Shown here in pieces: positions 13,330 through 52,482 of a DNA stretch of 64,000 nt. The notes below the pieces were generated by a model. The model worked only from the letters and a program-made list of their open reading frames with translations. It was not told the origin of the DNA and made no database searches. Where the stretch lies: assembly GCA_964648855.1 (NCBI GenBank), contig CAZYLT010000001.1, forward strand, positions 342,299 to 406,298, read 5' to 3'. The position numbers and the translations under genes were made by a program. The stretch's first letter is position 1; each line of letters starts with the position of its first letter. The stretch comes from an uncultured archaeon (GTDB lineage: Archaea; Asgardarchaeota; Thorarchaeia; Thorarchaeales; Thorarchaeaceae).

Positions 13330-13468
13330 GCGTGTCACCAAGCCCGTCGGATAAGTTCAAGCAAAAAAGCATTTGGGAATCGGGGGTTTAGTCGAAAAAT
13401 GATGTCAGATAGGCAAAAAAGAGACGCGAATTGCACATCTGGTCATTTCTTGTTCCAAGCAGCTAGGG

Positions 13469-14404
13469 TTAGCTTGTATATCCACCATAATCTATGGCGT
13501 CGACAATGAAGACATTGGTCTGGTTCTGCAGATACGTATAGGCTGCAAGTACATTTCTGAGTAACATGGCAATAGTCATTGGCCCCACACCACCAGGTAC
13601 CGGAGTAATGTAAGATGCTTTCTCCTTAACAGTTTCAAAATCGACATCACCCTTTGGCGTAGCCACATCTATGACAATTGCACCCTCTTTAACCATCTCT
13701 TCAGTGATAAAATACGGGTCGTCATTGGATTCCCGAAGTCCAACCGCAGTGACAAGAATATCTGCTTGCTTAGTCATACTTGAGATGTCCTTGGTCTTCG
13801 AATGGCAAACGGAAACCGTAATGTCTCTGTCAAGCAACATGAAAATTAGTGGTTTGCCGACTATAGTAGATCGGTTAATGATGACCGCGTCTTTTCCTTT
13901 CAAATCAACCGGTAGTAAATCCAGCATCGTGACAATACCTTGAGGAGTCGCAGCACTCAAGAATTCATTCCCATGGAATAACCGATATATGTTCCTCGGG
14001 GAAAATCCATCAACATCTTTACCAGGCGATATTGCATCAATAACCTCCTCTTCATCGATATGACTTGGCAGAGGCAACTGTACGAGTATACCATGAACAT
14101 CACGGTCTTGATTGAGTTCCTGTATCAGGTCGATAAGCTCCTCTTCGGTCGTGTTCCCCGGTAAATCATGGGTTTCGGAAAGAATACCGGCCTTTTCACA
14201 GGCTCGCTGTTTCATACGCACATACATTTTGGACCCTGGGTCCTCACCAACAATAATGGCGACTAGCTTTGGCGGTGTTCCGTGTACCTCAGTCAGATGC
14301 TGAACTTCTTCCTTGATGTGCTGTCGTATCTTTTTTGCCAGAGTCTTGCCGTCAATGACTTTTCCTTCTACGAATTCCTCAAGTGCAATGTCGTATTCGC
14401 TCAT
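13469..14404 (-). CDS. folD: Bifunctional 5,10-methylene-THF dehydrogenase / 5,10-methenyl-THF cyclohydrolase
   Basis: VIDGKTLAKKIRQHIKEEVQ ... PKLVAIIVGEDPGSKMYVRMKQRACEKAGI ... HGILVQLPLP ... GGVGPMT are all FolD hallmarks. 311 aa. Confidence 0.85.
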   Translation of the reverse strand: MSEYDIALEEFVEGKVIDGKTLAKKIRQHIKEEVQHLTEVHGTPPKLVAIIVGEDPGSKMYVRMKQRACEKAGILSETHDLPGNTTEEELIDLIQELNQDRDVHGILVQLPLPSHIDEEEVIDAISPGKDVDGFSPRNIYRLFHGNEFLSAATPQGIVTMLDLLPVDLKGKDAVIINRSTIVGKPLIFMLLDRDITVSVCHSKTKDISSMTKQADILVTAVGLRESNDDPYFITEEMVKEGAIVIDVATPKGDVDFETVKEKASYITPVPGGVGPMTIAMLLRNVLAAYTYLQNQTNVFIVDAIDYGGYTS

Positions 14405-14415
14405 GTTGAATCCTC

Positions 14416-16011
14416 CTAAAATACGCCTGATATGTTGCCATCCTCATCTATGTCCATCTCTTCTGCCGCGGGATCAGATGGGAGTCCAGGCATCAACATG
14501 ACATCTCCAGTGTACACAATAACAAAACCAGCACCAGCGCTGACATCAGCTCCACGTACGGTTAAGACGAAATCTTCCGGTCGCCCCTTCTTGCGAGGAT
14601 CATCACTGAGGCTGAATTGTGTCTTCGCCATGCATATTGGGAGCTCACCATGCCCACGTTTCTTCAACGACCATAGTTCTCCATTGGCATTATCTATGTA
14701 CCTGACACCCTTTGCTCCATAGATACTCTTGGCAACCTTCTCAATTTTCACTTTGAGGTCTTCATCGACATCATAGGTGTAATTCACTTCGTTTCGAGTT
14801 CCTGTAATATCAAGTACTGCCTTCGCCATATCCTTTCCACCCTCGCTACCCTTGGCAAATACCTCTGAAACCTCCATCCTCCATCCCTTTTTCTCGCAGA
14901 ATTCCCGTACTTCTGCAATCTCCCCATCAGTATCATCAGGGAATCGGTTCACAGCAATTGCAAATGAAGGACCAAAGTTTTGGATGTTCTCTGCATGTTT
15001 CGCCAGATTTGGTAAGCCCTTCTTGAGGTCATCATCACCCTGCTCTTTCAGGGCTCTTATGCTGGTGATGATCACAACTCCGTCGACATTAAGGTTGCCA
15101 GCACGAGTGACGATGTTCATAAATTTCTCAGCACCGAGATCTGCTCCAAATCCTGCCTCGACTACCACATAGTCAAATAGACGCAGTGCAATGTCAATCG
15201 ACATTATTGAGTTCGTTCCATGGGCTATGTTTGCAAAGGGGCCGATGTGAATGAGGGCTGGTGTTCCCTCAGATGTCTGTACCAGATTCGGCTTTAGGGC
15301 ATCCTTCAACAAGACAGCCATTGCACCGTTCGCATTGATATCTTTGGCATATACTTCATTGAGGTCGTAATCTCGAGAGAGCAAAATATTGCCAAGCCGC
15401 TCCTTTAGGTCGGTATAGCTATTTGCCAAAGCCATTATTGCCATGATTTCGGAGGCAGCTGTAATTACATAGCTATCCTCTCTTGGAAACCCATTGTCCT
15501 TTCCGCCAAGGCCGACAACGACTTTTCTTAACGCCCGGTCATTCATGTCTATCGTTCTTGTCCAGTAGACTCTTCGTGGATCAATGCCTGCTTCATTCCC
15601 TTTGTTCACATGATTATCCAGCATTGCAGACAGAAGGTTGTGTGCTGCGGATATAGCTGGAAAATCCCCGGTGAATAGGAGGTTAATCTTCTCAAAAGGA
15701 TGAACTTCTGATTTACCACCGCCAGCGGCACCGCCCTTGATTCCAAAAACGGGACCCAGTGATGGTTCACGAAGTGTCACCACTGCGCTCTTCCCGAGAG
15801 CATTGAGCGACATAGACAAGCCTATAGAGTTTGTAGTCTTACCCTCTCCCGCGGAGGTCGGAGTGGTGGCAGTTACAAGAATCAGTTTTCCTTTCCGTTC
15901 TCCAAGCTCCTTCCGAATATTGAGATTGATTTTGGCCATGTGTTTTCCATAGGGTTCGAGATACTTTTCAGGAATTCCTGCCTCTTCTGCGACTTCAGTA
16001 ATGGGTTTCAT
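14416..16011 (-). CDS. fhs: Formate--tetrahydrofolate ligase (formyl-THF synthetase)
   Basis: PTSAGEGKTT P-loop variant typical of Fhs, plus GIKGGAAGGG. ~530 aa. The likely start is the ATG at 16011 (MKPITEVAEEAGI); the track start at 16113 is TTG. Confidence 0.85.
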   Translation of the reverse strand: MKPITEVAEEAGIPEKYLEPYGKHMAKINLNIRKELGERKGKLILVTATTPTSAGEGKTTNSIGLSMSLNALGKSAVVTLREPSLGPVFGIKGGAAGGGKSEVHPFEKINLLFTGDFPAISAAHNLLSAMLDNHVNKGNEAGIDPRRVYWTRTIDMNDRALRKVVVGLGGKDNGFPREDSYVITAASEIMAIMALANSYTDLKERLGNILLSRDYDLNEVYAKDINANGAMAVLLKDALKPNLVQTSEGTPALIHIGPFANIAHGTNSIMSIDIALRLFDYVVVEAGFGADLGAEKFMNIVTRAGNLNVDGVVIITSIRALKEQGDDDLKKGLPNLAKHAENIQNFGPSFAIAVNRFPDDTDGEIAEVREFCEKKGWRMEVSEVFAKGSEGGKDMAKAVLDITGTRNEVNYTYDVDEDLKVKIEKVAKSIYGAKGVRYIDNANGELWSLKKRGHGELPICMAKTQFSLSDDPRKKGRPEDFVLTVRGADVSAGAGFVIVYTGDVMLMPGLPSDPAAEEMDIDEDGNISGVF

Positions 16012-16295
16012 TTTTCCTACACCAGTGAAAGTAAACTTTTGATTAGTTGTTCCAATCAGTGCAAGTATTGACTGATAAAATGCACCGTATGGCTGTAGAG
16101 GCGGTTTGGTCAATCATGGTTGTGTCAGAAATGCACTCTTTTACAAAAGGTCTTGGCAATTATTACTGAAAAAAAGATGAGGCAGGGTGTTTATCCGCCT
16201 ATTGGGCTGAGAAATATGAATAGGCTTCCTCTCGAGGCACTGCCAGATGCATTGCCAGATGAAATTGATGTCGAAAAATATGTGATTTGCACGTA

Positions 16296-20012: not shown

Positions 20013-20483
20013 TTATAGCACAGTGACCGTGATATGCGGGTCGCCTGCTCCAGAACCGGTTGGTGGGTCGAAGTCATAGCTGTCTGTTGTATACCCATAG
20101 ACCGATCCGCCAAAAGCTAACGCATCAATCAAGACATTATACCAACCAGACTCCCACGCAGAATCAAACCAAGTCAGACGAATTCTGATTGAATCGAATT
20201 TGCCCACGAGTGTAACCATAGCCAATAACTCAGCGCCAGATGGCAGAGTAAGTGTGAAATAGAAGTCGGTCTTCTGTGGGCTCTTGTAGCCTTCAGTGAC
20301 TTCACAGAGATATTCTATTATTATGTCATCTTCTTGACCGTCGGCGTCAACATCGGCGTAGTATGCATTCTCTATAGTGACTTGGAATCTGGAACTGACA
20401 GCTGAAACCCCTTGAACCATTGATAGAAAAATCAATGGTAGCAATGCTAGTGCTAAGAGTCTTGCTTTGTTTCCATATTTCAT
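20013..20483 (-). CDS. Small secreted or exported protein of unknown function
   Basis: N-terminal signal peptide MKYGNKARLLALALLPLIFLSMVQGVSAVSS followed by a beta-rich ~125-aa domain. Directly downstream of the subtilase gene. Confidence 0.5.
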   Translation of the reverse strand: MKYGNKARLLALALLPLIFLSMVQGVSAVSSRFQVTIENAYYADVDADGQEDDIIIEYLCEVTEGYKSPQKTDFYFTLTLPSGAELLAMVTLVGKFDSIRIRLTWFDSAWESGWYNVLIDALAFGGSVYGYTTDSYDFDPPTGSGAGDPHITVTVL

Positions 20484-20559: not shown

Positions 20560-22563
20560 TCAAATTGTAAATGTTTCTGATGTTTCGACGTTGGCCGTGG
20601 CGTCGTAGGTATAACTACTATGAGCTACATTCGTGACGGTCACTGTATATGTGCCCTGGGGAGATCTCCCTAGGTCAAAAATGGCCACACCATTTGTTCC
20701 GGTGGTTGCAGTATAGGTACTGATGCTTCCGTCAGGATATTCCAAGTCTATGGTAACTTCCGCACCACTCACTGCATTTCCATTTGAGTCAACAACTGTA
20801 ATTTCAATTGTCAACCAAGCATGTGGACCTCGATAGGTCGCAGAGTACGAAATATCTGCAACATGCATGCTTCCGTCACTGCTTCCGCCATCATTACTTA
20901 CCGTAACTCCTACGCTATCTGAAGCAGTCTGACTGGCTGTGTCAGTGACTCGAGCGTTAATGGTATGGTCACCATCTGCTACACCTGTTGTGTCCCAGTC
21001 ATAGTAGTAATAACCATCCGAATCGACATTGTTAGTTATGTCAATCCAGTTCCCACCATCGATGTTCACTTCAACCGTGGAAACACCATTGTCGTCGCTG
21101 GCTGATACCTTGATCCTGTACGTACCACTCACTGTCTCTCCTTCTGTTGGAGCGTGAATTGATGCAGTTGGTGGGTTGTCAGTGGGTTCAGTTCCGCCAC
21201 CAGTAACATAGTCCAAGGCGTCCTTTGCTTGTGCTATGCCCCAGCCGTATGTGTTGTCTTCTCCTTCCTCACCCATATCCATGGCTGTTGTCTTAAGTAC
21301 CTCTTTGACATTGAAGGAAGTTAGACCAGAGTCGGCTTGTCGAAGTAGTGCGCCAATTCCGGCGGCCATGGGCGTAGCCATAGAGGTTCCGCTGTAAGTA
21401 ACATATCCGCTTCCACTATTGGCCTCGGCTGCAGTTATGGATGAACCGGCAGCACAAATTTCGGGTTTTATTCTTCCATCACCAGTCGGACCCTCATTGC
21501 TGAAGCTTGAGTGGGTTCCGTCATCATTGACAGATCCTACTGTAATTGCGTAGCGTGATGCCGATGGACATCCTATGGTGTTATACCCATACAGACGTTC
21601 AGGGTGACCGTGATTGCCTGCAGCAACAAAGAGAGCAATGTCGTTCTCCATTATGGAGTCTGCCATCAAACAAATCTCACCTGTACCATCGGATGAACTA
21701 GATGGGTTGGTTGATAGACTCATTGAGGCGATATTGATGTTGTAGGTTGTCCGGTAATCAATAATCCACTGCATGCCAGCAAGAACACCTTCAAGGGTTC
21801 CACCGCCGCCAGAGTCAAGGACCTTAACTCCGACTAGCTGAGCAGCATATGCAACTCCGCGATATCTGGAATCACCCTCTCCAGTCCCAGCAGCGATGCT
21901 TGAACAATGGGTTCCATGTCCATTATCATCGTATGCTACAACAGGAGTTGATAAGTCATCTTGACCGTTCACTACATCCTTGAAGGCGACGACTTTGTAG
22001 GTGTTGTATGGATCATCGTCATCCAGGTCAACATGGGTATTGTCGATTCCCGTGTCTAGGACAGCGATAACCATTCCTTCTCCGCGATAATCGTAGGATT
22101 GATATGCTTCAGGAACCTGCACAATGGGCAGTCCGCTATCAAGTGTTGCCTGTACCTCAATATTTGCATCAGATATTCTGATGACATCTTGTGAAGCACT
22201 GAGGTATTTCATGTTTCGTCGTGGGATATCTATCGATAGAGCCCCGATTGCGTCGTACCTGTATCTGACTTTTGCATCCAGCATGGGGAGCATATCTTCC
22301 AAGCTTGGAGAGGCAGTCACAATTACAGATACGCGTTCGTTTTGTTTCAGCTCTGCTAATTTTGGCTCAAATTCATCAACAATCTTGTTACCGTTCTGGT
22401 CCCAGCTATGGGTTACAATAGTGGTGCCCTTAGGTTGGGCTATAACTAGACCGGCAATCGCCACTGTCAAGAATAAGAACGCAAAGGAGCAAGCTAGATA
22501 CTTGTATCCGCGTTTTTTCAAATCTCTCACATCCAGAGGCCTTTCAAAATAGGCCTCAGGCAT
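20560..22563 (-). CDS. Secreted subtilisin-like serine protease (peptidase S8) with C-terminal Ig-like/beta-sandwich domains
   Basis: Catalytic triad motifs VIAVLDTGID (Asp), HGTHCSSIAAG (His) and GTSMATPMAAG (Ser). N-terminal signal/TM segment. The C-terminal ~230 aa are Thr/Ser/Gly-rich repeated beta strands. Track start GTG at 22584; ATG at 22563. Confidence 0.85.
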   Translation of the reverse strand: MPEAYFERPLDVRDLKKRGYKYLACSFAFLFLTVAIAGLVIAQPKGTTIVTHSWDQNGNKIVDEFEPKLAELKQNERVSVIVTASPSLEDMLPMLDAKVRYRYDAIGALSIDIPRRNMKYLSASQDVIRISDANIEVQATLDSGLPIVQVPEAYQSYDYRGEGMVIAVLDTGIDNTHVDLDDDDPYNTYKVVAFKDVVNGQDDLSTPVVAYDDNGHGTHCSSIAAGTGEGDSRYRGVAYAAQLVGVKVLDSGGGGTLEGVLAGMQWIIDYRTTYNINIASMSLSTNPSSSSDGTGEICLMADSIMENDIALFVAAGNHGHPERLYGYNTIGCPSASRYAITVGSVNDDGTHSSFSNEGPTGDGRIKPEICAAGSSITAAEANSGSGYVTYSGTSMATPMAAGIGALLRQADSGLTSFNVKEVLKTTAMDMGEEGEDNTYGWGIAQAKDALDYVTGGGTEPTDNPPTASIHAPTEGETVSGTYRIKVSASDDNGVSTVEVNIDGGNWIDITNNVDSDGYYYYDWDTTGVADGDHTINARVTDTASQTASDSVGVTVSNDGGSSDGSMHVADISYSATYRGPHAWLTIEITVVDSNGNAVSGAEVTIDLEYPDGSISTYTATTGTNGVAIFDLGRSPQGTYTVTVTNVAHSSYTYDATANVETSETFTI

Positions 22564-22708
22564 AGTGTTTGGGAAAATGTACACTAGCTTATAAGTATAT
22601 CTAGAAATTTCCCGCTTTGACTGTCATGGACGAAAATGCTAGACGGAATAACACATCACCTTCGTACTGGTCGAACATAACATCAAAATCACAGAAACTC
22701 ACATCTAC

Positions 22709-23299
22709 TCAGGTAGGCAGATGCAGAGCACCCACATCAGACGCGGATTGAATCCAAAAACAGACTCGAACAAGTACTTCCTCAAGAAAGCGAGGCCGGT
22801 CACTTGGCTTGGCATCCTTCGGCCACCGATTACGTCTGTACTCGTCGAACTTCTGGAATGTTCGCCCGTATTTGGTGGTCATCGGTATCTCGACGTAGCG
22901 ATCACATACTGTCGTGAGGGCACGGATAAGAGGCGCATATTCAAACTTGATCCGTAATAACCACTTCGTGATGGCACGGAAGAATGCGCGGTCATCGGTG
23001 CCTTCCCACGGAATATCCATCATCCCTTCGCGATCTTCACCACGAACCCTCTGGCTGTTGAAGTCGCAGTCGCTGCTGTGAGTGCAACGAGCTCTCACAA
23101 ACACCTTTTTGTCGGTAAACCACAGAACTACTCTATGGTCCCCCTTTTTCTGAAGAAGCTCTTTATGGTCGCCGGCAGGAAAGATCAACTCTATCGTTCC
23201 CGGGTCTTTGAATTTGAAATCCTTCTTGAAGTATAATTGCATGGCCCAGGTGATAGGAGGGATAGTATTTACTGGATAGAGCTCGCTTCGGTCAGTCAT
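22709..23299 (-). CDS. Hypothetical protein (196 aa), co-oriented and immediately downstream of the Rab-like GTPase
   Basis: ATG start, no recognisable motifs. Cys/His-containing segment RARCTHSSDCDFNSQ. 110-bp spacer to the GTPase gene. Confidence 0.5.
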   Translation of the reverse strand: MTDRSELYPVNTIPPITWAMQLYFKKDFKFKDPGTIELIFPAGDHKELLQKKGDHRVVLWFTDKKVFVRARCTHSSDCDFNSQRVRGEDREGMMDIPWEGTDDRAFFRAITKWLLRIKFEYAPLIRALTTVCDRYVEIPMTTKYGRTFQKFDEYRRNRWPKDAKPSDRPRFLEEVLVRVCFWIQSASDVGALHLPT

Positions 23300-23408
23300 G
23301 TCTACTCAGCTGGCTGTTTCTTAATGGATAATAGGATAGAATCCAGTGGTCTTGCTAATCTAAGTCTTGTCCTCCATGAATTGGACCATGAGATAGAACA
23401 CAGCGAAA

Positions 23409-23951
23409 TTATTCGCTTGAGCGTCTAGTACTAACGAGTGTCTTTCCAAGATTCTCGAAGATGTCAACGATACCCTCGCCCGTCTTTGCAGATGACTCCA
23501 CGTAGGGCATGCCGTGTGCATCAGCGAATTCCCTGCCCTCCTTTGGCTCAACCACACGGTCAGGCAAGTCCGTCTTGTTTGCAACTAGCACCAAGGGAAT
23601 CTTTTTCTTAATCGCCTTTTCCAATTCATTGAGCCACTCATCAAGCAGAAGGAATGTTCGGCGTCGGGTGACATCGAATACGAGCACGCCGCCGCTTGAA
23701 CCTCTATAGTACATTGGTCTCAAAATCTGAAAGCGGCTCTGCCCCGCCACGTCCCAGATTTGCAGCTTCACAGTCAGGTTTTCACGGCTCTCACGTATAT
23801 CGATATTCTTGACAGCGAACTGAGAGCCTATCGTTGTCTTGTAATCGGTACGGAAGAAGCCATGAGAGAAGCGAGTGACGATTGCAGTTTTTCCTACTGC
23901 ACCCTCTCCGAGAATGACCACTTTAAACAGGTAATCGTACGTACTGCTCAT
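23409..23951 (-). CDS. Small GTPase of the Ras superfamily (Rab/Arf-like, eukaryote-type)
   Basis: G1 GEGAVGKT, G2 YKTTIGSQF (switch I Thr), G3 WDVAGQSRF (DxxGQ), G4 VANKTDL (NKxD) and G5 ESSAKTGEG (SAK). ~180 aa from the ATG at 23951. Confidence 0.85.
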   Translation of the reverse strand: MSSTYDYLFKVVILGEGAVGKTAIVTRFSHGFFRTDYKTTIGSQFAVKNIDIRESRENLTVKLQIWDVAGQSRFQILRPMYYRGSSGGVLVFDVTRRRTFLLLDEWLNELEKAIKKKIPLVLVANKTDLPDRVVEPKEGREFADAHGMPYVESSAKTGEGIVDIFENLGKTLVSTRRSSE

Positions 23952-23996
23952 CAGATTCAATTCCGACTCTTGTTTTGAGTGAAACGGTTGGGCTCA

Positions 23997-24916: not shown

Positions 24917-25042
24917 GTGATGACCTCGTGTCTTTTCCCATAGAATACGAGCACTGCATATATTCGTTCTCTGGATAGTTGGCTGGGCTCATCGTCAGTT
25001 ACCTTTTTCTTTCAGTGGCGAGATGAAGGGCATGTGAAAAGA

Positions 25043-26422
25043 ATGGCAGAAAAATTGTTTGGAACAACGGGTATACGGAAAATATACGGCTCCGAATTCA
25101 CCCTAGATATGGCAATGAAGTTGGGGAGAGCACTAGGCACATATCTCCAAACAGGAAGAATACTCATTGCAAGGGACACCCGAACAACAGGGAAAATGGT
25201 TGTCGATGCATTCGTATCAGGGGTACTCTCAACGGGCATCGATGTGACCCGGCTGGGTATAGTTCCAACACCGACATTGGCATACCTGACCAGAAAAAGG
25301 GTATTTGATGCGGGCGTGATGGTAACCGCGTCCCATAACCCCCCAGAATATACAGGCATAAAATTTTGGCATAAGGATAGCATGGGATACACTTCAGAGA
25401 TGGAGAGAGAAATCGAGAGGCTCTACCAATCACAAGAATTTCAGGTAGCACCGTGGAACGAGCTGGGTCAAGAAGCTGTCTTGGAGGATGCAGTAGAGGA
25501 ACATATCTCTGACATCATCGACCACTGTGATAGTGAAGCCATCAGTCGCCAAGAGTTCAAGGTCATTGTCGATCCCGGAAATGGAGCAGCATGTGTCTTG
25601 ACTCCGTATCTTATGCGGAAACTAGGTTGTAAGGTTATCACAATCAATGGGCAGCCAGATGGGCATTTTCCTGGAAGAAGGTCTGAACCAGAAGAGGAAA
25701 CTCTACAAGACCTCATTCATATGGTGAAAAAGCAGGGAGCGGATCTGGGAATCGCTCATGATGGAGATTCCGATCGAGGAGTATTTGTGACTGAAACAGG
25801 AGAAGTCGTAAGAGGAGACAGAACCATTGCCCTACTTGCAAAGACACTCTTGAAGAATGCCAAAACGGGCGTAGTTGTAACCACAGTGGATAGTTCAAAG
25901 GTTCTCGACGAAACGGTTCAGAGGGCTGGCGGGGATATTGTTCGGACACCAGTTGGCGACATCCAGGTTGCAGTCAAGCTAAAGGAGCTTGAAGGTATTA
26001 TGGGAGGAGAAGCCTGTGGAGTGTTCATATTTCCTTCATTTCACATTGCACCAGAGCCTTTCCTGGCTGCTTGCAAGATACTGGAGATGATGGCTCACGT
26101 CGGAAAAAGCTTTGGCGAGCTGGTTTCTGAGATTCCGGTATACCCGTTATTGAAAACAAAGCTTGAGGTGGCGAATAATAGGAAGGAACCGGTCATGAAG
26201 GAACTCTCAAAGATGTTACCAAAAAAGATAGATGGAATTCAAGATGTGATTACGGTAGATGGCATCGGATTAGTCCTAGATGATGGGTGGATTCTTGTAA
26301 GACCATCAGGAACGGAACCGGTCATAAGGATAACTTGCGAAGCATCAACTGACGACCGAGCTCACGAAGTACTGGACTCATGTAAGCGAGTTGTAAAGAA
26401 GACAATCTCTTCCCAGAAATAA
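25043..26422 (+). CDS. Phosphohexomutase family enzyme (archaeal phosphoglucosamine / phosphomannomutase / phosphoglucomutase)
   Basis: GTTGIRK N-terminus, active-site TASHNP, and the DGDSDR metal-binding loop. ~459 aa from the ATG at 25043; the track start is GTG. Confidence 0.8.
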   Translation: MAEKLFGTTGIRKIYGSEFTLDMAMKLGRALGTYLQTGRILIARDTRTTGKMVVDAFVSGVLSTGIDVTRLGIVPTPTLAYLTRKRVFDAGVMVTASHNPPEYTGIKFWHKDSMGYTSEMEREIERLYQSQEFQVAPWNELGQEAVLEDAVEEHISDIIDHCDSEAISRQEFKVIVDPGNGAACVLTPYLMRKLGCKVITINGQPDGHFPGRRSEPEEETLQDLIHMVKKQGADLGIAHDGDSDRGVFVTETGEVVRGDRTIALLAKTLLKNAKTGVVVTTVDSSKVLDETVQRAGGDIVRTPVGDIQVAVKLKELEGIMGGEACGVFIFPSFHIAPEPFLAACKILEMMAHVGKSFGELVSEIPVYPLLKTKLEVANNRKEPVMKELSKMLPKKIDGIQDVITVDGIGLVLDDGWILVRPSGTEPVIRITCEASTDDRAHEVLDSCKRVVKKTISSQK

Positions 26423-26505
26423 TAAGGGCAGAATAGCTTGGTCCTGTGCAAACAAGCTTTATAGCCCAAACGAAATAAACGGTACAAAGAACGGAGCCAA
26501 ATCCA

Positions 26506-26937
26506 ATGGCTGAAGACGATGACGATTTCATCATGGAGGAATTTGAATGGGCCCTAAAGGACCCAACAGAAGAAAAGCTACGTCAACTCGGTGAAGTAGT
26601 CAGCATCATAACAGGAAAAATTGTTGATGCCATAGGTCAACTTGAAAACCGTATTAGTTCGTTAGAAGAAAATGTCAGTAACATGAGTTCTCGCATATCA
26701 TCTCTAAGCTCGAGAGCGAGCAGTGCTAGTGCAGAACCCGCTGCGGAAGCAGTAGAATCCACACCCAGTCCACCAACATCGCCAAGCGTTGGTGGTGCCC
26801 CAGAACCAGCATCAGCCAGTGCAGGAGGCGGAGGGCCACCTGGAGGCGGAGGTGGTGGAATGACAATGATGGGGGAGCTCAAAGCATTGTTGGCGGCGAG
26901 AAGAAAGAAAGTAGAAGGCGGAGAAAAACAGGCTTAG
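26506..26937 (+). CDS. Small acidic coiled-coil protein with a Ser/Pro/Gly-rich linker and a C-terminal basic amphipathic helix (function unknown)
   Basis: 143 aa. The N-terminal ~75 aa form a heptad-like helix. Then SSRISSLSSRASSASAEPAAEAVESTPSPPTSPSVGGAPEPASASAGGGGPPGGGGGG, then MTMMGELKALLAARRKKVEGGEKQA. TATA-like TTTATAG lies ~45 nt upstream. Confidence 0.5.
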   Translation: MAEDDDDFIMEEFEWALKDPTEEKLRQLGEVVSIITGKIVDAIGQLENRISSLEENVSNMSSRISSLSSRASSASAEPAAEAVESTPSPPTSPSVGGAPEPASASAGGGGPPGGGGGGMTMMGELKALLAARRKKVEGGEKQA

Positions 26938-27596
26938 GTCAATAATTTACGACTGTTCTTTTTGTAGAAAGGGCCTGCGTGGCGGGGCATAGAAACAGTG
27001 AACGCCTCTGCGCGCGAACAAGCGCCTTGGACGCCTCTCAGTTTTGTTCGAGCATCATAGAAAGTCAAGTAGAAGCCTTCAGCTTTTGAAATCTGAGATT
27101 CGTGTTTCTTCAGTGCCAATAAGCTCTCATCGTAGGACGTGGTGATATCCACTATAAAGTGAGGATGTGAATGGAGAGTGTTGATTTCCATCTGTAGCAT
27201 GCGATCCACTCTATGAGGTTCTTCGAACATTGTCTTGTGCGATGCCCATTCGATAGATTCCATAACAAGCTCCGCACAGATTCTGTGGTTACGATTGTAG
27301 TCCTCGCTAGAGTGCGTGATTATGATATCGGGACGGGACTGGAGGATAACCTCAATTACTGAGTCGGAAAGACTTCTATCGATTTCAAAGTCCCCTCGAT
27401 TGGAAGGGTATATCTTTCTGACACCCAATATGTCACAAGCATTTGCAAGCTCCTCATTTCGTTTGTCATTTCCGGTTAAGCAAAGGACATCTACTGGAAT
27501 GTCCGCCTTGGTATGATTTCTGATTGTCCCTCCAGCACCAAGACATTCGTCATCGGGATGTGCGGTAATCACAAGAATAGAATCCAAATCTGCCAT
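26934..27596 (-). CDS. bshB: PIG-L / LmbE-family N-acetylglucosaminyl deacetylase (BshB/MshB-like)
   Basis: LVITAHPDDECLGAGG is the AHPDDE zinc-binding motif. ~220 aa from ATG ~27596. The track TTG at 27626 would overlap the divergent neighbour. Confidence 0.75.
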   Translation of the reverse strand: MADLDSILVITAHPDDECLGAGGTIRNHTKADIPVDVLCLTGNDKRNEELANACDILGVRKIYPSNRGDFEIDRSLSDSVIEVILQSRPDIIITHSSEDYNRNHRICAELVMESIEWASHKTMFEEPHRVDRMLQMEINTLHSHPHFIVDITTSYDESLLALKKHESQISKAEGFYLTFYDARTKLRGVQGACSRAEAFTVSMPRHAGPFYKKNSRKLLT

Positions 27597-27710
27597 ACAG
27601 GTTACTCGGAGATGGTCACTAATCAAGTTTTACCAATGCTTCAGGGGTATATTCCCGCACCAAGCACCTTAAAGGTAGGTAGTCTTGATACGATACAAGA
27701 GTTGACAAGG

Positions 27711-28874
27711 GTGAAAATTGGAGTCAATCTATATCCTTCAGTCGGTGGTTCAGGATATCTTGCCACTCGACTAGGCCAGCATCTAGTTGAGAGAGGACAC
27801 ATAATCCATTTCATAACATATCAAAGACCTTTCTCATTAGTGTGGGAAGATACGCGAGGAGCATTTGTGGACCTAGTTGACACTATCGACTATCCATTAT
27901 TCAAGGACATCTGCCCGCCCTATTCAATGGCGCTAGCTTCGAAGATTGTCCAAGTTTCTCAAAACTCCCAACTGGATTTGATTCATTCACACTATGCCAT
28001 CCCACATGCACTATCTGCATACATGGCAAGAGAAATTGTGGGGATACCTTATGTCATTACGATGCATGGCTCAGATGTACACTCGTTAGGTCTGGACCCA
28101 GCATATCAACCAGTAGTAAAACACACAGTTCAACAAGCAAGTGCGGTCACCACGGTAGCGGCCTTTCTCCGAGATAGTGCTTACGAAAAGTTAGGTATTG
28201 ATAGAGAAATTCATGTTATTCCAAATTTCATTGATGTTGAGAAGTACAAACGGAAAGAGGGTATACGACTTGTAGTTGAAAGCGGTTGTGTATCGGTGAG
28301 AACAGAGGAGGATGCCGAGGCCATCAACCCAGATCAGAGAGTCCTACTCCATGTTTCAAACTTCAGGAAAGTCAAGCGAGTCGTTGAACTGATAGAAATA
28401 ATGAAAATGGTAGTGGATGAGAAGCCAGATACCCGGCTTGTTCTCGTAGGAGATGGACCAAAGAGAGTAGAGGTTGAGCGTAAGATAGAGGAGCTAGATC
28501 TTTGCCAAAAGGTACACCTTCTAGGAATCAGAAGCAATGTACATGAAATCATGTGTTCATCTGATATGCTCTTGATGAATTCCTTGCAGGAAGGGATGCC
28601 ACTTGTTATCCTAGAGGCCATGGCATCGCAATTACCTGTTGTTACGACACCAGCTGGTGGAATACCGGAATTAGTAAGACCCGGAAAGGATGGGTGGGTA
28701 ACTGAAGGTTATGAAAAGGAAGAATTTGCTCATGCGATTCTAACCCTTCTTGATGATGACGCAAAACTGAAGAAATTTGGACATACTGGATGGAAGAGAG
28801 TCAAGGAGAAATTCTCAGCAGACATAATTGTACCAAAATATGAACAGGTCTTCCAAGAAGCAGTTCAAAAATAG
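27711..28874 (+). CDS. bshA: GT4-family retaining glycosyltransferase resembling BshA/MshA (N-acetyl-alpha-D-glucosaminyl L-malate synthase-like). A PIG-A-like GlcNAc transferase is the alternative reading.
   Basis: N-terminus VKIGVNLYPSVGGSGYLATRLGQHLVERGHIIHFITYQRPFSL closely resembles the BshA start (KIGITCYPSVGGSG...HFIT) as I recall it. C-terminal EX7E motif EGMPLVILEAMASQLPVVTTPAGGIPE. The GTG at 27711 gives a BshA-like N-terminus; in-frame ATGs further upstream (27636, 27513) would overlap the divergent deacetylase gene. Confidence 0.75.
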   Translation: MKIGVNLYPSVGGSGYLATRLGQHLVERGHIIHFITYQRPFSLVWEDTRGAFVDLVDTIDYPLFKDICPPYSMALASKIVQVSQNSQLDLIHSHYAIPHALSAYMAREIVGIPYVITMHGSDVHSLGLDPAYQPVVKHTVQQASAVTTVAAFLRDSAYEKLGIDREIHVIPNFIDVEKYKRKEGIRLVVESGCVSVRTEEDAEAINPDQRVLLHVSNFRKVKRVVELIEIMKMVVDEKPDTRLVLVGDGPKRVEVERKIEELDLCQKVHLLGIRSNVHEIMCSSDMLLMNSLQEGMPLVILEAMASQLPVVTTPAGGIPELVRPGKDGWVTEGYEKEEFAHAILTLLDDDAKLKKFGHTGWKRVKEKFSADIIVPKYEQVFQEAVQK

Positions 28875-28885
28875 GAGAGTATTGA

Positions 28886-30604
28886 GTGACCAAGAGAAGC
28901 ATTACACAGGCATACTTGGACTATATTTGGAAGTCCAAACACGAGGAGTTGGCATCTGAACTCTACAACGACCCACCTATTTTGATGAACGACTTGAGAA
29001 AGCGCGCAGTCAATTTGAGAAAGACGTATGCTGAGCAAGACTGGCATACAGATGATAGGACTGAGAGATTGCAGAGGGCGTTGACAAGGATTAACCGTGA
29101 GCTAGGTTGTCTAAGTCCGAAAGTCAAGAAAAGCATTGAGAAACTACATGAGGGCGCTGTTGAGGCAGCTCATCAAAGCGTTGTATTAGGCGGCCCTTGC
29201 TATATTCTGAACAAGGCCATCACAGCAGAAAGATTGGCGGTCCTGAACTCGACCGAGCAGACATCTCTTGTCCCATTTTATTGTATTGCTGATTATGATA
29301 TAGTTCAGAGTGAGTTGACCCATACGAGAACGCCCTTGATGGGACCAAGTGGAAATATAGTGAGCATACCGGTTCCTGATGAATACGAGTTCTCACCTGT
29401 GAGTGTTGTGCCTTTACCCGAATATCATTGGTATGAGGAAGCGGAGGAGAGTATTAGAACGGGGTATAGCCCATTGTTCAAAGTACTTGAAGGAAATACA
29501 CGAAAGCTCTTTGACGAAAGGCTTGAATATGCACTTTCCATAACCAGACAAGCATTTCTTAACTCCGAAACTCTGGGGGAATGGGCACAAAGGATTATTG
29601 CAAGGATTGTGAACATTGAAGGAAACCTAGGACTACCTCTAGTTCCAGCTTCTGACGATGAGATACGAAAACTATGGGCGCTTGGCATGGAATTTCTTCT
29701 CTCCAAAGAGATACGAGAGAATTTCGTTCAGATGTACGGTCAAGCCACGAAAAGAATTCAGAATAACGGGTTTGAGCCAGGTGCAGGAGGAAGGGATAGC
29801 GCGTATGTCCCATTCTTCTATGAATGCCAAACAGAATCATGTAATCGGGCTAGAACAGAGCTGTTCTATGAATTGGATGGGTCGAAAGCATTACTCAGAG
29901 GAGAATGTCCTCTTTGCAACGAAAAAATCCAATTAGAAGTCGATGCGGAAACTCCAGATCTATCAGACCAAGCTACGTTTCTATCACCCAGAGTTGATTC
30001 TCGACAATTTGCAGTCGATTCCTCGATCCCTATCATAGCTCATGCGGGAGGGCCGGGAGAGACTGCGTATTATGCGCAAGTCATACCGATTGCAAGAAAA
30101 TTGAAGATACCATTTCCTATGTTTGTGAAATACCCTCGTGTCTTTTTCAATACCCCATGGAGCGAAGATATGGCTAACCAGCTAAAGACAAGCGAGATTC
30201 CCGTGCTTCACAGAGGTGAGATGTTTCGGGCCATGGGACAAGTTACTCGAAATAGAAACAAAGAGAACTATGACGAGATGAATGGGGCAATCCAGGATCT
30301 TGCAGGAATCATTTGGACGACACATGATGAGCTGTTAGAATCTTTGCATAAACTTGAGAAGGAGATTGAGGAAACCGAGGAGCATGTAGAGGAAGACAGA
30401 CTAGAGCTGAAATTCAAAATTGAAACCTATCTGTCTTGGGCATATGGTCGGTATGCAAAGGGAAAGAATGCACAGGAGTCATCTTGGTCATGGATTGAAT
30501 GGGTACTAAATGCGGGACTTGGTGATTTATTTGGACCGTACGAGCGGGCCTATATGCAACAAATGAAGAATGGAGCAACGCTTTTTGTAAATTTCATGGT
30601 ATGA
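28886..30604 (+). CDS. Large conserved protein, candidate BshC-like enzyme (third gene of a bacillithiol-type pathway), with an internal Cys4 zinc-ribbon
   Basis: 572 aa with a GTG start 12 nt after the bshA-like stop. Segments SVVLGGPCYIL, VPFYCIADYD and IIAHAGGPGETAYYAQV resemble conserved blocks of BshC (YllA) as I recall them (VVGGQQAGLLTGP / IPIFWVAGEDHD / IAGPGE). The memory-based match is uncertain. Zinc-ribbon is CQTESC ... CPLC. The C-terminal ~130 aa are coiled-coil-like. Confidence 0.45.
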   Translation: MTKRSITQAYLDYIWKSKHEELASELYNDPPILMNDLRKRAVNLRKTYAEQDWHTDDRTERLQRALTRINRELGCLSPKVKKSIEKLHEGAVEAAHQSVVLGGPCYILNKAITAERLAVLNSTEQTSLVPFYCIADYDIVQSELTHTRTPLMGPSGNIVSIPVPDEYEFSPVSVVPLPEYHWYEEAEESIRTGYSPLFKVLEGNTRKLFDERLEYALSITRQAFLNSETLGEWAQRIIARIVNIEGNLGLPLVPASDDEIRKLWALGMEFLLSKEIRENFVQMYGQATKRIQNNGFEPGAGGRDSAYVPFFYECQTESCNRARTELFYELDGSKALLRGECPLCNEKIQLEVDAETPDLSDQATFLSPRVDSRQFAVDSSIPIIAHAGGPGETAYYAQVIPIARKLKIPFPMFVKYPRVFFNTPWSEDMANQLKTSEIPVLHRGEMFRAMGQVTRNRNKENYDEMNGAIQDLAGIIWTTHDELLESLHKLEKEIEETEEHVEEDRLELKFKIETYLSWAYGRYAKGKNAQESSWSWIEWVLNAGLGDLFGPYERAYMQQMKNGATLFVNFMV

Positions 30605-51920: not shown

Positions 51921-52482
51921 CAAAATAAAGAGTAGAAAAGATGAATCTAACCAGATTTCTACAAGCTACACCTCAATCAGTTCGGAAGAGTCCTCGAAAG
52001 ACAAAGCGAAGCCCCATCCTCCTCTCTATTGAATACGGTCCTTCAGTCAATACCAACAAAACCACGACCGCCACTTGTTCCTTTTTGCCCTTTGATAGCG
52101 GATTATGAGAATCTCTGTCTTGGCCAAAACCAGACCCAATCATATCATGAAAAATTATACCATTGGACTATCAGCATAGTCTGTAGAGATATCACTCCAC
52201 CCTTCAGCATATTCAAGGATCTCCCCAATGACTGCCCAGTCCATCTCAGAATTCTCTTGCACTCCAACAAACAATGTGGCTAGCGAAACCATGCCATAAG
52301 AGAATGTCAACGTATTAACAAAAAAGACCTCTTCAGCTTGAGTCGTTCGGAGTGCCATCGTATGCATGCACCAACAGCTTTCTCGCTTGAGGAGCTATAC
52401 CCATTTTTTTGGGTCATAAGGTTGAAACATTTCAAAAGAACTCGGCCGGCAACTGATAGGACATAGGAAACTTGGTGACTGT

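What the first reader, a model, noticed from the sequence alone, without database searches (positions are those of the whole stretch)
26506..26937. 143-aa protein with coiled-coil, Ser/Pro/poly-Gly linker and a C-terminal basic amphipathic motif resembling actin-binding (VASP/WH2-like) or MIT-interacting (MIM) peptides
The architecture has an acidic N-terminal helix, a low-complexity S/P/A/G-rich segment (PPGGGGGG), and a terminal MTMMGELKALLAARRKKVEGG. This recalls eukaryotic Ena/VASP EVH2 regions, where a Gly-rich stretch is followed by [14 protein letters not shown]-like G/F-actin-binding helices. That is recalled from memory, so the similarity is suggestive only. It also resembles thymosin/WH2 LKK(V/T) motifs. 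ExLxxLLAxRRK also fits the ESCRT-III MIM1 consensus (D/E)xxLxxRLxxL(K/R). In an Asgard archaeon with actin, profilin, gelsolin and ESCRT homologs elsewhere, a free-standing actin- or Vps4-binding peptide protein would be notable.
Basis: inference. Interest (0 to 1): 0.55.

Follow-up and report, generated by a model that had tools for sequence, protein, structure and literature searches.

The report
Asgard coiled-coil protein with VASP-like tail
This small gene belongs to an undescribed protein family found across Asgard archaea (a coiled-coil stalk, a floppy and often proline-rich tether, and a near-invariant C-terminal helix resembling the filament-binding motif of animal Ena/VASP proteins), making it a testable candidate for a missing archaeal actin-assembly or bundling factor.

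Summary
The ORF at 26506-26937 (+) is real and reads exactly as described. It is not an orphan. It has more than 300 close relatives in Thorarchaeota, and a profile search plus a genome scan found the same architecture across Asgard archaea, including both cultured species (Lokiarchaeum ossiferum B35 and Promethearchaeum syntrophicum MK-D1). The parts are a short acidic/aromatic helix, a long heptad coiled coil, a disordered linker and a C-terminal helix, MMGELKxLLAARRxK, whose core is identical in all 33 aligned Thor orthologs. In Loki-type relatives the linker carries GPPPPP/GGPPGGPP repeats, the classic profilin-binding signature. In the Thor clade it is Ala/Ser/Pro/Gly-rich with no proline runs. 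Profile-profile comparison puts the C-terminal module exactly on the F-actin-binding (FAB) motif of verified Ena/VASP proteins (Prob 92%, P about 5e-7; 300 shuffled decoys never came close). Plain HMMER scores are not significant, and the strong signal comes mostly from the Thor clade. The WH2 LKK(T/V) and ESCRT-III MIM1 readings both fail (0 of 219 members). The protein is not a member of Ena/VASP, WH2 or ESCRT-III. My best reading, at about 40%, is an oligomeric tethered-peptide actin binder. No paper found describes the family.

The parts
26458..26463 (+). TTTATA, candidate archaeal TATA box 43-48 nt upstream of the ATG
   Evidence: Read from the sequence. The ortholog locus L003 has TTTATA at the same offset, -47. 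L001 lacks it. Inference only.
26493..26496 (+). GGAG, candidate Shine-Dalgarno-like site ending 9 nt before the ATG
   Evidence: Read from the sequence. Inference only.
26506..26937 (+). Complete coding sequence, 143 aa plus a TAG stop; Thor-clade member of an uncharacterised Asgard-wide family
   Evidence: ORF; 306 relatives; alignment A1; distant relatives with the same architecture.
26515..26556 (+). N-terminal acidic/aromatic helix (residues 4-17, DDDFIMEEFEWAL); F13, W15, A16 and L17 are invariant in Thor orthologs
   Evidence: AF2 helix 4-17. Invariant columns in A1. The Loki-type counterpart is MAEEFxxF(L/M).
26563..26727 (+). Long helix (residues 20-74) forming a heptad coiled coil; presumed oligomerisation stalk. 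Its start (DPTEEKLRQLGEVVSIIT) is highly conserved.
   Evidence: AF2 helix 20-74 with pLDDT above 90. Hydrophobic period 3.5-3.6, reached by 2 of 5000 shuffles. Only weak coiled-coil Pfam noise. The non-family hits of the profile search are long coiled-coil proteins.
26728..26859 (+). Disordered Ala/Ser/Pro/Gly-rich linker (residues 75-118) ending in GGGGPPGGGGGG; variable in length and sequence between orthologs
   Evidence: pLDDT below 50 for 78-118. Variable columns in A1. GC 0.64 against 0.45 for the window. Replaced by GPPPPP/GGPPGGPP repeats in Loki-type relatives.
26860..26922 (+). C-terminal docking module MTMMGELKALLAARRKKVEGG (residues 119-139; helix 121-138); the FAB-like motif
   Evidence: Invariant M122, E124, L125, K126, L128, L129, A130, A131, R132, R133. 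Core pattern in 118 of 120 hits. AF2 helix 121-138. hhalign to the Ena/VASP FAB with decoy controls.

Best explanation
The gene encodes a small cytoplasmic 'tethered-peptide' protein of a previously undescribed, Asgard-wide family. What is shown: an N-terminal helix plus a roughly 50-residue heptad coiled coil, a disordered linker, and a near-invariant C-terminal helix of about 18 residues with a hydrophobic first half (MMxELKxLL) and a basic end (AARRxK). What is inferred: the coiled coil makes the protein a dimer or higher oligomer. The flexible linker then presents several copies of the C-terminal helix to a highly conserved partner. The most likely partner is the Asgard actin, bound at the filament side or at the barbed-face hydrophobic groove. 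The Thor protein would then work like the EVH2 part of Ena/VASP: a multivalent F-actin binder that tethers or bundles filaments and possibly tracks their ends. In Loki-type relatives the GPPPPP repeats just upstream of the helix would add recruitment of profilin-actin, giving a minimal proline-tract plus actin-binding-helix elongation module like those of Ena/VASP and WASP-family proteins. The Thor version in this window lacks proline runs, so for this gene I favour filament binding or bundling over profilin-fed elongation. The resemblance to the Ena/VASP FAB motif is more likely convergent than inherited.
For: Architecture and conservation. The same layout recurs in distant relatives from Loki-, Hel- and Sigynarchaeota and both cultured Asgard strains.

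Proline tracts: 68 of 78 Loki-type members have PPPP and 41 of 78 have GPPPPP, placed directly before the C-terminal helix. These tracts are about 65% GC in loci of median 28% GC. PPPP occurs in essentially no other ORF among about 1200 in the held loci, so the composition is selected.

FAB similarity: hhalign of Thor A1 against verified Ena/VASP A6 gives Prob 92.6, P 4.7e-7 over 26 columns including the preceding Gly run. The whole-family alignment A2 gives Prob 91.7, P 7.8e-7. The motif-only alignment A5 scores 33.7, against 12 for reversed decoys and at most 19.1 for 300 column shuffles. The Loki-type profile alone picks the same register.

GTPase fusions: two relatives fuse the whole module to a Rag/Arf-like small GTPase, as expected of a regulated effector.

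Established knowledge: Ena/VASP combines a profilin-recruiting proline region, GAB and FAB actin-binding peptides and an oligomerisation domain, and monomeric VASP is inactive in solution (PMC3034019). An archaeal precedent exists in arcadin-2, whose conserved C-terminal helix sits on an unstructured linker and docks into crenactin's hydrophobic groove (PMC5173319). Only profilins and gelsolins are recognised as Asgard actin regulators (PMC7444086), so an assembly or bundling factor is a known gap. Thor and Heimdall profilins bind polyproline weakly (PMC8410842).
Against: No binding data exist and no complex could be modelled here.

By profile-to-sequence HMMER the Ena/VASP match is only 7-15 bits (E 0.01-6 per 20,000 proteins), and shuffled VASP sequences reach 12 bits. 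The candidate was also chosen post hoc.

The strong hhalign signal comes mostly from the Thor clade. Loki-type and divergent members alone give Prob 18.6, P 1.3e-3. The Dictyostelium FAB is reported to differ substantially from the mammalian one (PMC3034019). Both points argue against deep homology and weaken the inference.

There is no WH2 LKK(T/V) motif in any of 219 members, and no WH2 or other actin-binder chain in the PDB matches the motif profile at E<=10.

The Thor protein itself has no proline runs (median longest run 1). Several Loki, Odin and Heimdall LC2 profilins were reported not to bind VASP polyproline (as cited in PMC8410842).

There is no genomic linkage to actin, profilin or gelsolin. 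The 64-kb window contains none, and neighbourhoods differ between clades and look like housekeeping genes.
Confidence: 0.4

Rival explanations
1. Same tethered-peptide architecture, but the C-terminal helix docks onto a conserved partner other than actin. Candidates include a small GTPase, roadblock or longin regulator, a tubulin/FtsZ-type filament, or a translation or chaperone component. The protein would act as an oligomeric adaptor or scaffold, and the proline-rich linker would be only an extended spacer.
For: The architecture itself does not specify a partner. Two relatives are fused to a Rag/Arf-like GTPase. A Rab/Ras-like GTPase gene lies about 2.5 kb upstream in the window (23409-23960) and in Thor loci L001 and L003. 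The HMMER-level similarity to the FAB is not significant. There is no genomic linkage to cytoskeletal genes.
Against: It does not explain the specific profile-profile hit on the FAB motif, including the preceding Gly run. It also does not explain why GPPPPP-type repeats, whose only known reader in Asgard archaea is profilin, are selected immediately next to the helix in AT-rich genomes. The nearby GTPase is on the opposite strand, separated by two other genes, and the linkage is seen only within one clade.
Confidence: 0.3
2. The basic, hydrophobic C-terminal helix binds acidic membranes (a membrane-targeting sequence like those of MinD or FtsA), so the protein is a peripheral membrane scaffold.
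For: The tail has net charge +3 to +4 next to Met/Leu residues. The position at the very C-terminus, after a flexible linker, resembles bacterial membrane-targeting sequences (my own knowledge).
Against: The hydrophobic moment of the 18-mer is low (0.09-0.27). The basic residues sit at the end of the helix and not along one face. Near-invariance of individual residues (G123, E124, K126, A130, A131) is typical of a protein-protein docking motif and not of a lipid-binding helix, which tolerates substitution. A conserved acidic residue (E124) sits in the middle of the helix.
Confidence: 0.1
3. The C-terminal helix is an ESCRT-III-type MIM1 that recruits the Vps4 MIT domain, so the protein is an ESCRT adaptor.
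For: It is a C-terminal helix with Leu residues and a basic end, and Asgard archaea encode Vps4 with a MIT domain (established knowledge). Nothing from the tools supports this reading.
Against: The MIM1 consensus (D/E)xxLxxRLxxL(K/R) matches 0 of 219 members, and a relaxed form also matches 0 of 219. The Arg at +3 and the Leu at +7 from the first Leu are replaced by Leu and Arg/Lys. There is no Snf7/ESCRT-III domain. No ESCRT or Vps4 gene is in the window. No ESCRT-III chain appears in the PDB motif search.
Confidence: 0.04
4. The basic tail binds nucleic acid or the ribosome, and the resemblance to the FAB is chance similarity between short basic helices.
For: The tail has an RRKK cluster. 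One weak PDB motif hit is to ribosomal protein eL32 (E=2.9), which is noise level. JGI automatic names are inconsistent (eIF-1/SUI1, Lpp, membrane protein, MazG).
Against: The N-terminal half of the protein is strongly acidic. The conserved part of the motif is the hydrophobic/Gly/Glu half and not the basic residues, which vary (RRxK). The automatic names contradict each other and none is backed by Pfam or NCBIfam.
Confidence: 0.05

Closest known systems
Ena/VASP EVH2 region (F-actin-binding FAB motif plus oligomerisation domain; vertebrate VASP, EVL, Mena)
   Same: A Gly run is followed by a helix of pattern h-M-x-E-h-x-x-h-h-A-+-+-+-K: Thor GGGGMTMMGELKALLAARRKK against VASP [19 protein letters not shown]. 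An oligomerising coiled coil is in the same polypeptide. Loki-type relatives have GPPPPP repeats upstream, as in Ena/VASP.
   Different: There is no EVH1 domain, no WH2-like GAB and no VASP_tetra domain. The coiled coil is N-terminal and a conventional heptad coil. The proteins are only 117-184 aa long. The Thor clade lacks proline runs. The similarity covers about 25 residues, is not significant by HMMER and is weak for non-Thor clades. It is probably analogous and not homologous.
WASP/WAVE-family proline-rich domain plus WH2 (the V region) and other WH2 proteins
   Same: The order of parts is the same in Loki-type relatives: an N-terminal helical assembly domain, then a proline-rich tract, then a short C-terminal helix with a basic end. 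The hydrophobic residues at positions 0, 1 and 4 of the helix (IMxxL) are spaced as in WH2 LLxxI.
   Different: No LKK(T/V) motif in any of 219 members. No Pfam WH2 hit. No WH2-actin PDB chain is found by the motif profile. There are no C or A regions.
Arcadin-2 of Crenarchaeota (crenactin regulator; PDB 5LY3; PMC5173319)
   Same: An archaeal protein whose small conserved C-terminal helix is separated from the core by a non-conserved unstructured linker. That helix alone binds the actin homologue's hydrophobic groove. This is the same design principle.
   Different: Arcadin-2 is encoded next to crenactin in the arcade cluster, whereas this gene is not linked to actin. Sequence relatedness was not tested: the 17-residue peptide chain is below the 20-residue limit of the PDB sequence set. 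Arcadin-2 is a depolymeriser or sequesterer and its binding depends on a Trp.
ESCRT-III MIM1 peptides (CHMP1, CHMP2, Vps2, Did2)
   Same: A C-terminal amphipathic helix with Leu residues and a basic end.
   Different: The consensus is not met (0 of 219), there is no ESCRT-III core and there is no ESCRT context.

Membership tests
Ena/VASP | N-terminal EVH1 domain (PF00568) | tested here: not met
   Pfam scan of the 143-aa protein at E<=1 shows no EVH1 hit. The Loki B35 relative also has none.
Ena/VASP | Central proline-rich region with GPPPPP-type profilin-binding repeats | tested here: not met
   Window protein and Thor clade: median longest Pro run 1, PPPP in 1 of 121, GPPPPP in 0 of 121. The feature is met in Loki-type relatives (PPPP in 68 of 78, GPPPPP in 41 of 78).
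Ena/VASP | G-actin-binding WH2-like GAB motif (...LRKV) | tested here: not met
   L[KR][KRH][VT] is absent from the last 45 residues of all 219 family members and present in 10 of 11 verified Ena/VASP sequences. hhalign reports only the FAB alignment.
Ena/VASP | F-actin-binding FAB motif (Gly run + LMEEMxxxLARRRK) | tested here: inconclusive
   hhalign gives Prob 92-93%, P 5e-7 to 8e-7, in the correct register, and the decoy controls pass. HMMER gives only 7-15 bits, and the Loki-type profile alone gives P 1.3e-3.
Ena/VASP | C-terminal tetramerisation domain (PF08776 VASP_tetra) | tested here: not met
   No Pfam hit. The coiled coil is N-terminal with ordinary heptad periodicity.
Ena/VASP | Binds F-actin and accelerates barbed-end elongation | not testable with these tools
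   Requires biochemistry or complex modelling.
WH2 domain (PF02205) | Match to the WH2 profile | tested here: not met
   No PF02205 hit at E<=1 or in the B35 relative.
WH2 domain (PF02205) | LKK(T/V) motif after the amphipathic helix | tested here: not met
   0 of 219 members.
WH2 domain (PF02205) | Short N-terminal helix of about 3 turns with a hydrophobic face | tested here: met
   AF2 helix 121-138. M121/M122, L125 and L128/L129 are conserved.
WH2 domain (PF02205) | Sequence similarity to WH2 peptides solved in complex with actin | tested here: not met
   The motif profile A5 against 177,635 PDB sequences at E<=10 returns only designed coiled coils and eL32.
ESCRT-III MIM1 | Consensus (D/E)xxLxxRLxxL(K/R) | tested here: not met
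   0 of 219 strict and 0 of 219 relaxed.
ESCRT-III MIM1 | Located at the C-terminus of an ESCRT-III (Snf7-fold) protein | tested here: not met
   No Snf7 hit. The AF2 model is a single long helix, not a helical-hairpin core.
ESCRT-III MIM1 | Binds the Vps4 MIT domain | not testable with these tools
   Requires complex modelling or binding assays.
Arcadin-2-like actin-groove binders | Conserved C-terminal helix separated from the core by a non-conserved unstructured linker | tested here: met
   The feature is as described for arcadin-2 in PMC5173319.
Arcadin-2-like actin-groove binders | Encoded next to the actin gene (arcade cluster) | tested here: not met
   No actin-family gene in the 64-kb window or among the conserved neighbours in 83 loci.
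Arcadin-2-like actin-groove binders | Sequence homology to arcadin-2 | not tested
   No arcadin-2 sequence was available. The weak NCBIfam hit to arcadin-4 (E 0.038, 12 bits against a cutoff of 860) is coiled-coil noise.

The most novel reading that the evidence does not exclude
This family is the first dedicated actin filament assembly or bundling factor of Asgard archaea. It would be a minimal Ena/VASP-like machine (oligomerising coiled coil, profilin-recruiting GPPPPP tether, FAB/WH2-like actin-binding helix) that existed before eukaryotes. That would mean the 'profilin-actin delivered through a polyproline tether to a filament-bound peptide' logic of eukaryotic actin polymerases arose in archaea. 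In the strongest version, the EVH2 FAB peptide descends from it.
Probability: 0.2. Interest if true: 0.9.

Novelty: new variant of a known kind. Interest (0 to 1): 0.72.

Why it matters
Asgard archaea build an actin cytoskeleton that shapes their protrusions. The only actin regulators recognised in them are profilins and gelsolin/cofilin-type proteins (PMC7444086, PMC9834061). No formin, Ena/VASP or complete Arp2/3 complex is known, so how their filaments are nucleated, elongated, anchored or bundled is an open question. It is also unresolved why some Asgard profilins bind polyproline when no polyproline-bearing partner has been identified (PMC8410842).

This family offers a concrete candidate. 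It appears single-copy (each of the 80 loci listed came from a different assembly). It is present in both cultured strains. In most lineages it carries textbook profilin-binding repeats directly next to a near-invariant helix that resembles a known F-actin-binding peptide. The proteins are about 140 residues long and the key peptide about 20, so the hypothesis can be tested directly with synthetic peptides, recombinant Lokiactin and the existing cultures.

If the partner turns out not to be actin, the family is still a conserved Asgard-specific scaffold with Rag/Arf-GTPase fusions and is worth characterising.

Tried and rejected
1. Pfam, NCBIfam: no family above cutoff, only coiled-coil noise such as COG6_N, Alanine_zipper, LPP, TraP, SlaB and arcadin-4.

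2. PDB sequence search with the C-terminal motif profile: only designed coiled-coil peptides and eL32.

3. Foldseek of the AF2 model against the PDB: only phage fibre coiled coils at E>2.

4. Operon context. Thor loci keep the order abhydrolase, PGM/PMM, this gene, PIG-L, GT4, BshC-like. Loki-type loci keep Pelota, radical SAM, then either a 207-aa helical protein or an Elf1-like zinc ribbon upstream. Nothing is shared between the clades, and the 207-aa neighbour has no Thor homolog and no relation to this family. No functional inference was possible.

5. MIM1 reading: rejected on the consensus test.

6. Canonical WH2 reading: rejected.

7. Membrane amphipathic helix: disfavoured by the low hydrophobic moment.

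8. Non-vertebrate Ena/VASP. I searched with the Ena/VASP profile to see how old the FAB motif is, but the 120 listed hits were all vertebrate. I therefore rely on the statement in PMC3034019 that the Dictyostelium FAB differs substantially.

9. The search for related loci with the broad alignment A3 failed for lack of a conserved stretch. The narrower alignment A4 worked.

10. Thor 1DGelX 'domain X' as a possible carrier of the motif: the paper describes only a predicted coiled coil and gives no sequence to test.

11. Literature: four full-text searches and eight papers read (a ninth, PMC2063483, is not held); none describes this family.

12. MAG phylum labels (Hod, Odin, Hermod, one 'Nanopelagicaceae bacterium') were not trusted, because near-identical proteins carry different labels.
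Full report
OBSERVATION. The ORF is real and exactly as described: ATG at 26506, TAG ending at 26937, 143 aa. It reads MAEDDDDFIMEEFEWALKDPTEEKLRQLGEVVSIITGKIVDAIGQLENRISSLEENVSNMSSRISSLSSRASSASAEPAAEAVESTPSPPTSPSVGGAPEPASASAGGGGPPGGGGGGMTMMGELKALLAARRKKVEGGEKQA. AlphaFold2 with a 33-sequence alignment predicts helices at 4-17, 20-74 (pLDDT above 90 in the centre) and 121-138 (pLDDT about 81). Residues 78-118 are disordered, with pLDDT below 50. Family-averaged hydrophobicity over residues 25-72 peaks at a period of 3.5-3.6 residues, and only 2 of 5000 shuffles reach the observed power, so the long helix is a heptad coiled coil. A TTTATA box at 26458-26463 recurs at the same offset in ortholog locus L003, and GGAG at 26493-26496 sits just before the ATG. 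Both suggest an independently expressed gene (inference).

A REAL, CONSERVED GENE. A search of 5.8 billion proteins found 306 relatives at E<=1, the best at 3e-36. They are 127-161 aa long, nearly all from Thorarchaeota MAGs, and all annotated as hypothetical. An alignment of 33 of them (A1) shows mosaic conservation. The N-terminal block is invariant (F13, W15, A16, L17, D19, P20 ... L28, G29 ... I35, T36). The C-terminal block is invariant (M122, E124, L125, K126, L128, L129, A130, A131, R132, R133). The linker between them varies freely in length and sequence. The core C-terminal pattern is present in 118 of the 120 top hits, and the two exceptions differ by one residue. Pfam and NCBIfam give only sub-threshold coiled-coil noise.

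THE FAMILY IS ASGARD-WIDE, AND ITS RELATIVES ARE MORE TELLING THAN THE THOR PROTEIN. A profile search of 1.84 billion representatives recovered Thor orthologs and about 20 small proteins (117-184 aa) that match end to end at E of 1e-7 to 5e-4. The remaining hits are long coiled-coil proteins that match only the heptad region. The small proteins share the layout: an N-terminal acidic/aromatic helix, a conserved EEK(L/V)xxhxDIhEKhM segment running into a coiled coil, a linker, and a C-terminal ...P-x-S-L-R-G-A-I-M-G-E-L-K-x-L-F-A-K-R-K (alignments A2 and A5). Source names place them in Promethearchaeota (Loki-type), Helarchaeota and Sigynarchaeota.

A scan of one genome per GTDB species found 131 relatives. 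They include the two cultured Asgard archaea, Lokiarchaeum ossiferum B35 (L004) and Promethearchaeum syntrophicum MK-D1 (L009). Some MAG phylum labels in that list are unreliable, because near-identical proteins are labelled Hod- and Odinarchaeota and one contig is labelled as an actinobacterium.

In these Loki-type proteins the linker consists of GPPPPP, GGPPGGPP and PPPPPG repeats. PPPP occurs in 68 of 78, GPPPPP in 41 of 78, and the median longest Pro run is 5. The Thor clade has essentially none (median run 1; PPPP in 1 of 121). The tracts are about 65% GC in loci of median 28% GC. Among about 1200 ORFs in the roughly 1 Mb of held Asgard DNA, PPPP occurs almost only in this gene. That is strong evidence for selection on the proline/glycine composition. 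Two relatives (P0219, P0257) fuse the whole module to the C-terminus of a Rag/Arf-like small GTPase.

(a) Ena/VASP. I used my recalled human VASP sequence only as bait to retrieve named Ena/VASP proteins and read their sequences. The FAB region is [24 protein letters not shown] in VASP, [23 protein letters not shown] in EVL/Ena-type proteins, and GGGGGLMGEMSAILARRRKAANTGEK in P0311. The Thor protein reads GGGGGMTMMGELKALLAARRKKVEGGEK.

Profile-profile comparison aligns the Asgard family to exactly this motif and to nothing else in Ena/VASP:
- Whole-family A2 against Ena/VASP A6: Prob 91.7%, P 7.8e-7.
- Motif-only A5 against A6: Prob 86.6%, P 4.4e-6, score 33.7.
- Thor-only A1 against A6: Prob 92.6%, P 4.7e-7, 26 columns including the Gly run.

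Controls run locally with hhalign: reversed alignments score 12.1-12.3, and 300 column shuffles of the motif alignment have mean 10.4, sd 2.2 and maximum 19.1. The match is therefore far beyond what composition would give.

Three cautions apply. First, profile-to-sequence HMMER gives only 7-15 bits (E 0.01-6 for a 20,000-protein proteome), and shuffled VASP sequences reach 12 bits. With a post hoc candidate, the evidence is suggestive and not conclusive. Second, the Loki-type and divergent members alone pick the same register at only Prob 18.6%, P 1.3e-3, so the strong resemblance is largely a Thor-clade feature. Third, the Dictyostelium GAB and FAB 'differ substantially' from the mammalian ones (PMC3034019). 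Together these favour convergence on a similar peptide solution over inheritance.

(b) WH2/thymosin. The LKK(T/V) signature is absent from all 219 family members examined but present in 10 of 11 Ena/VASP sequences, as their GAB. There is no Pfam WH2 hit. The motif profile finds no WH2-actin chain in the PDB at E<=10. The helix does share the WH2-like spacing of hydrophobic residues (positions 0, 1, 4), and the FAB itself has been proposed to have WH2-like properties (PMC3034019). Membership in WH2 is nevertheless not met.

(c) ESCRT-III MIM1. The positions that should be Arg (+3) and Leu (+7) are Leu and Arg/Lys. There is no Snf7 core and no ESCRT context. This reading is rejected.

CONTEXT. 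In the window the gene lies between a PGM/PMM-family mutase (25034-26422, +) and a convergent PIG-L deacetylase (26934-27626, -), which is followed by a GT4 glycosyltransferase and a BshC-like protein. This order is kept in Thor loci whose orthologs are 44-56% identical. Loki-type loci have a different conserved neighbourhood: Pelota, radical SAM, then either an unannotated 207-aa helical protein or an Elf1-like zinc ribbon upstream. Nothing is shared between the clades. A Pfam survey of about 45 further ORFs in the window found no actin, profilin, gelsolin, ESCRT-III or Vps4 gene. Context therefore neither supports nor contradicts a cytoskeletal role. A Rab/Ras-like GTPase gene lies about 2.5 kb upstream on the other strand (23409-23960), also in L001 and L003.

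MECHANISM. What is shown: a coiled-coil stalk, a disordered tether and a near-invariant terminal helix. This is the design of a multivalent 'fly-casting' docking protein. Residue-level invariance, including Gly, Glu and Ala positions, points to a protein partner that is itself highly conserved. The low hydrophobic moment (0.09-0.27) argues against a lipid-binding amphipathic helix.

What is inferred: the partner is Asgard actin. The reasons are as follows.
- The specific FAB similarity.
- The selected GPPPPP-type tracts placed immediately before the helix in most lineages. In eukaryotes this pairing (proline-rich tract plus a short actin-binding helix on an oligomeric or clustered scaffold) is the hallmark of Ena/VASP and WASP-family elongation modules (PMC3034019; reference to Bieling et al. 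2018 in PMC12050087). In Asgard archaea the only known polyproline reader is profilin (PMC8410842).
- The restriction of the family to the one prokaryotic group with eukaryote-like actin and profilin.
- The archaeal precedent of arcadin-2, whose conserved C-terminal helix on an unstructured linker plugs crenactin's hydrophobic groove (PMC5173319).
- The GTPase fusions, which fit a regulated effector.

For the Thor protein in this window, which lacks proline runs, I favour multivalent filament binding or bundling. For Loki-type members I favour profilin-assisted elongation or tethering. I put about 0.4 on an actin-binding role, about 0.3 on another protein partner, and small probabilities on membrane, MIT or nucleic-acid binding. 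Evidence against the actin role: several Loki, Odin and Heimdall LC2 profilins were reported not to bind VASP polyproline (cited in PMC8410842), there is no genomic linkage, and the HMMER statistics are weak.

COMPARISON AND NOVELTY. The protein is not a member of Ena/VASP (no EVH1, GAB or VASP_tetra domain), of WH2, or of ESCRT-III. It may work like the EVH2 FAB-plus-oligomerisation unit, like the WASP proline-rich-plus-WH2 unit, or like arcadin-2. Four full-text searches and eight papers on Asgard actin regulation, plus two 2026 reviews and structure-based surveys, mention no such family. The recognised Asgard actin regulators remain profilins and gelsolins (PMC7444086). I rate it a new variant of a known kind: an undescribed family that recombines known elements (coiled coil, polyproline tether, basic actin-binding-type helix) in a minimal format.

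VERDICT. Going beyond the stated coordinates showed that the gene belongs to an Asgard-wide family that is present in cultured strains and carries profilin-type proline repeats. That raises both the plausibility and the testability of an actin-related role. Interest 0.72.

Noticed in passing
window 26934-30604 (with 25034-26422): A bacillithiol-biosynthesis-like trio sits directly downstream: a PIG-L/BshB-type deacetylase (26934-27626, -), a GT4/BshA-type glycosyltransferase (27513-28874, +) and a BshC-like Rossmann protein (28886-30604, +). A PGM/PMM (GlmM-like) mutase lies upstream. The same order is kept in Thor loci L001 and L003. A low-molecular-weight-thiol pathway in Thorarchaeota would be unusual.
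   Followed up: partly
window 27513-27720: The GT4 ORF as listed (453 aa) overlaps the 5' end of the divergent PIG-L gene by 114 nt. Its orthologs are 380-384 aa, so the true start is probably about 70 codons downstream.
   Followed up: no
window 22709-23960; L001 4178-5346; L003 4343-5484: A Rab/Ras-like small GTPase (23409-23960, -; Ras Pfam E 1e-48) is followed by a conserved 196-aa protein with no Pfam family (22709-23299, -). The pair is conserved in Thor loci.
   Followed up: partly
proteins P0219 (413 aa) and P0257 (426 aa): Natural fusions: an unknown region of about 120 aa, then a Gtr1/RagA/Arf-like GTPase domain, then the complete coiled-coil/linker/C-terminal-motif module. Organism and genomic context were not determined.
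   Followed up: partly
L051 7243-7866 and the equivalent position in 64 of 82 Loki-type loci: A conserved all-helical protein of about 207 aa with no Pfam family lies immediately upstream on the same strand (median gap 129 nt). It has no homolog in the Thor loci or the window and is not related to the family. In B35 and MK-D1 the upstream gene is instead an Elf1-like zinc-ribbon protein with a long acidic tail.
   Followed up: partly
L042, L064, L076: Taxonomic labels of some MAG contigs look wrong. L042 is labelled 'Candidatus Nanopelagicaceae bacterium' but carries a typical Loki-type gene. L064 ('Hodarchaeota') and L076 ('Odinarchaeota') encode near-identical proteins.
   Followed up: no
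window 57087-57590 (-): A peptide deformylase homolog (Pep_deformylase, E 3e-37) in an archaeal genome. This is unexpected, since archaea do not generally formylate the initiator Met.
   Followed up: no
window 11767-16113 (-): A folate one-carbon cluster: formiminotransferase-cyclodeaminase, a FolD-type dehydrogenase/cyclohydrolase and formate-tetrahydrofolate ligase. The ligase is also present near the gene in L001.
   Followed up: no
window 20560-22584 (-) and 20013-20483 (-): A secreted-looking subtilase (Peptidase_S8) with C-terminal Ig-like domains, next to a 156-aa protein with an N-terminal signal-like hydrophobic segment and no family.
   Followed up: no
window 49026-51923 (-): A P-type cation ATPase with both Cation_ATPase_N and Cation_ATPase_C domains (type II, SERCA/PMCA-like architecture). 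It may be relevant to the proposed calcium control of Asgard gelsolins.
   Followed up: no
window 26637-26882 (-): An antisense 81-aa ORF encoding PPPPPPGGPPPP. It is a mirror artefact of the GGN-rich linker codons on the coding strand and not a gene.
   Followed up: yes
source names: Automatic JGI names for family members contradict each other (eIF-1/SUI1, murein lipoprotein Lpp, membrane protein, MazG-like pyrophosphatase). None is supported by Pfam or NCBIfam.
   Followed up: yes
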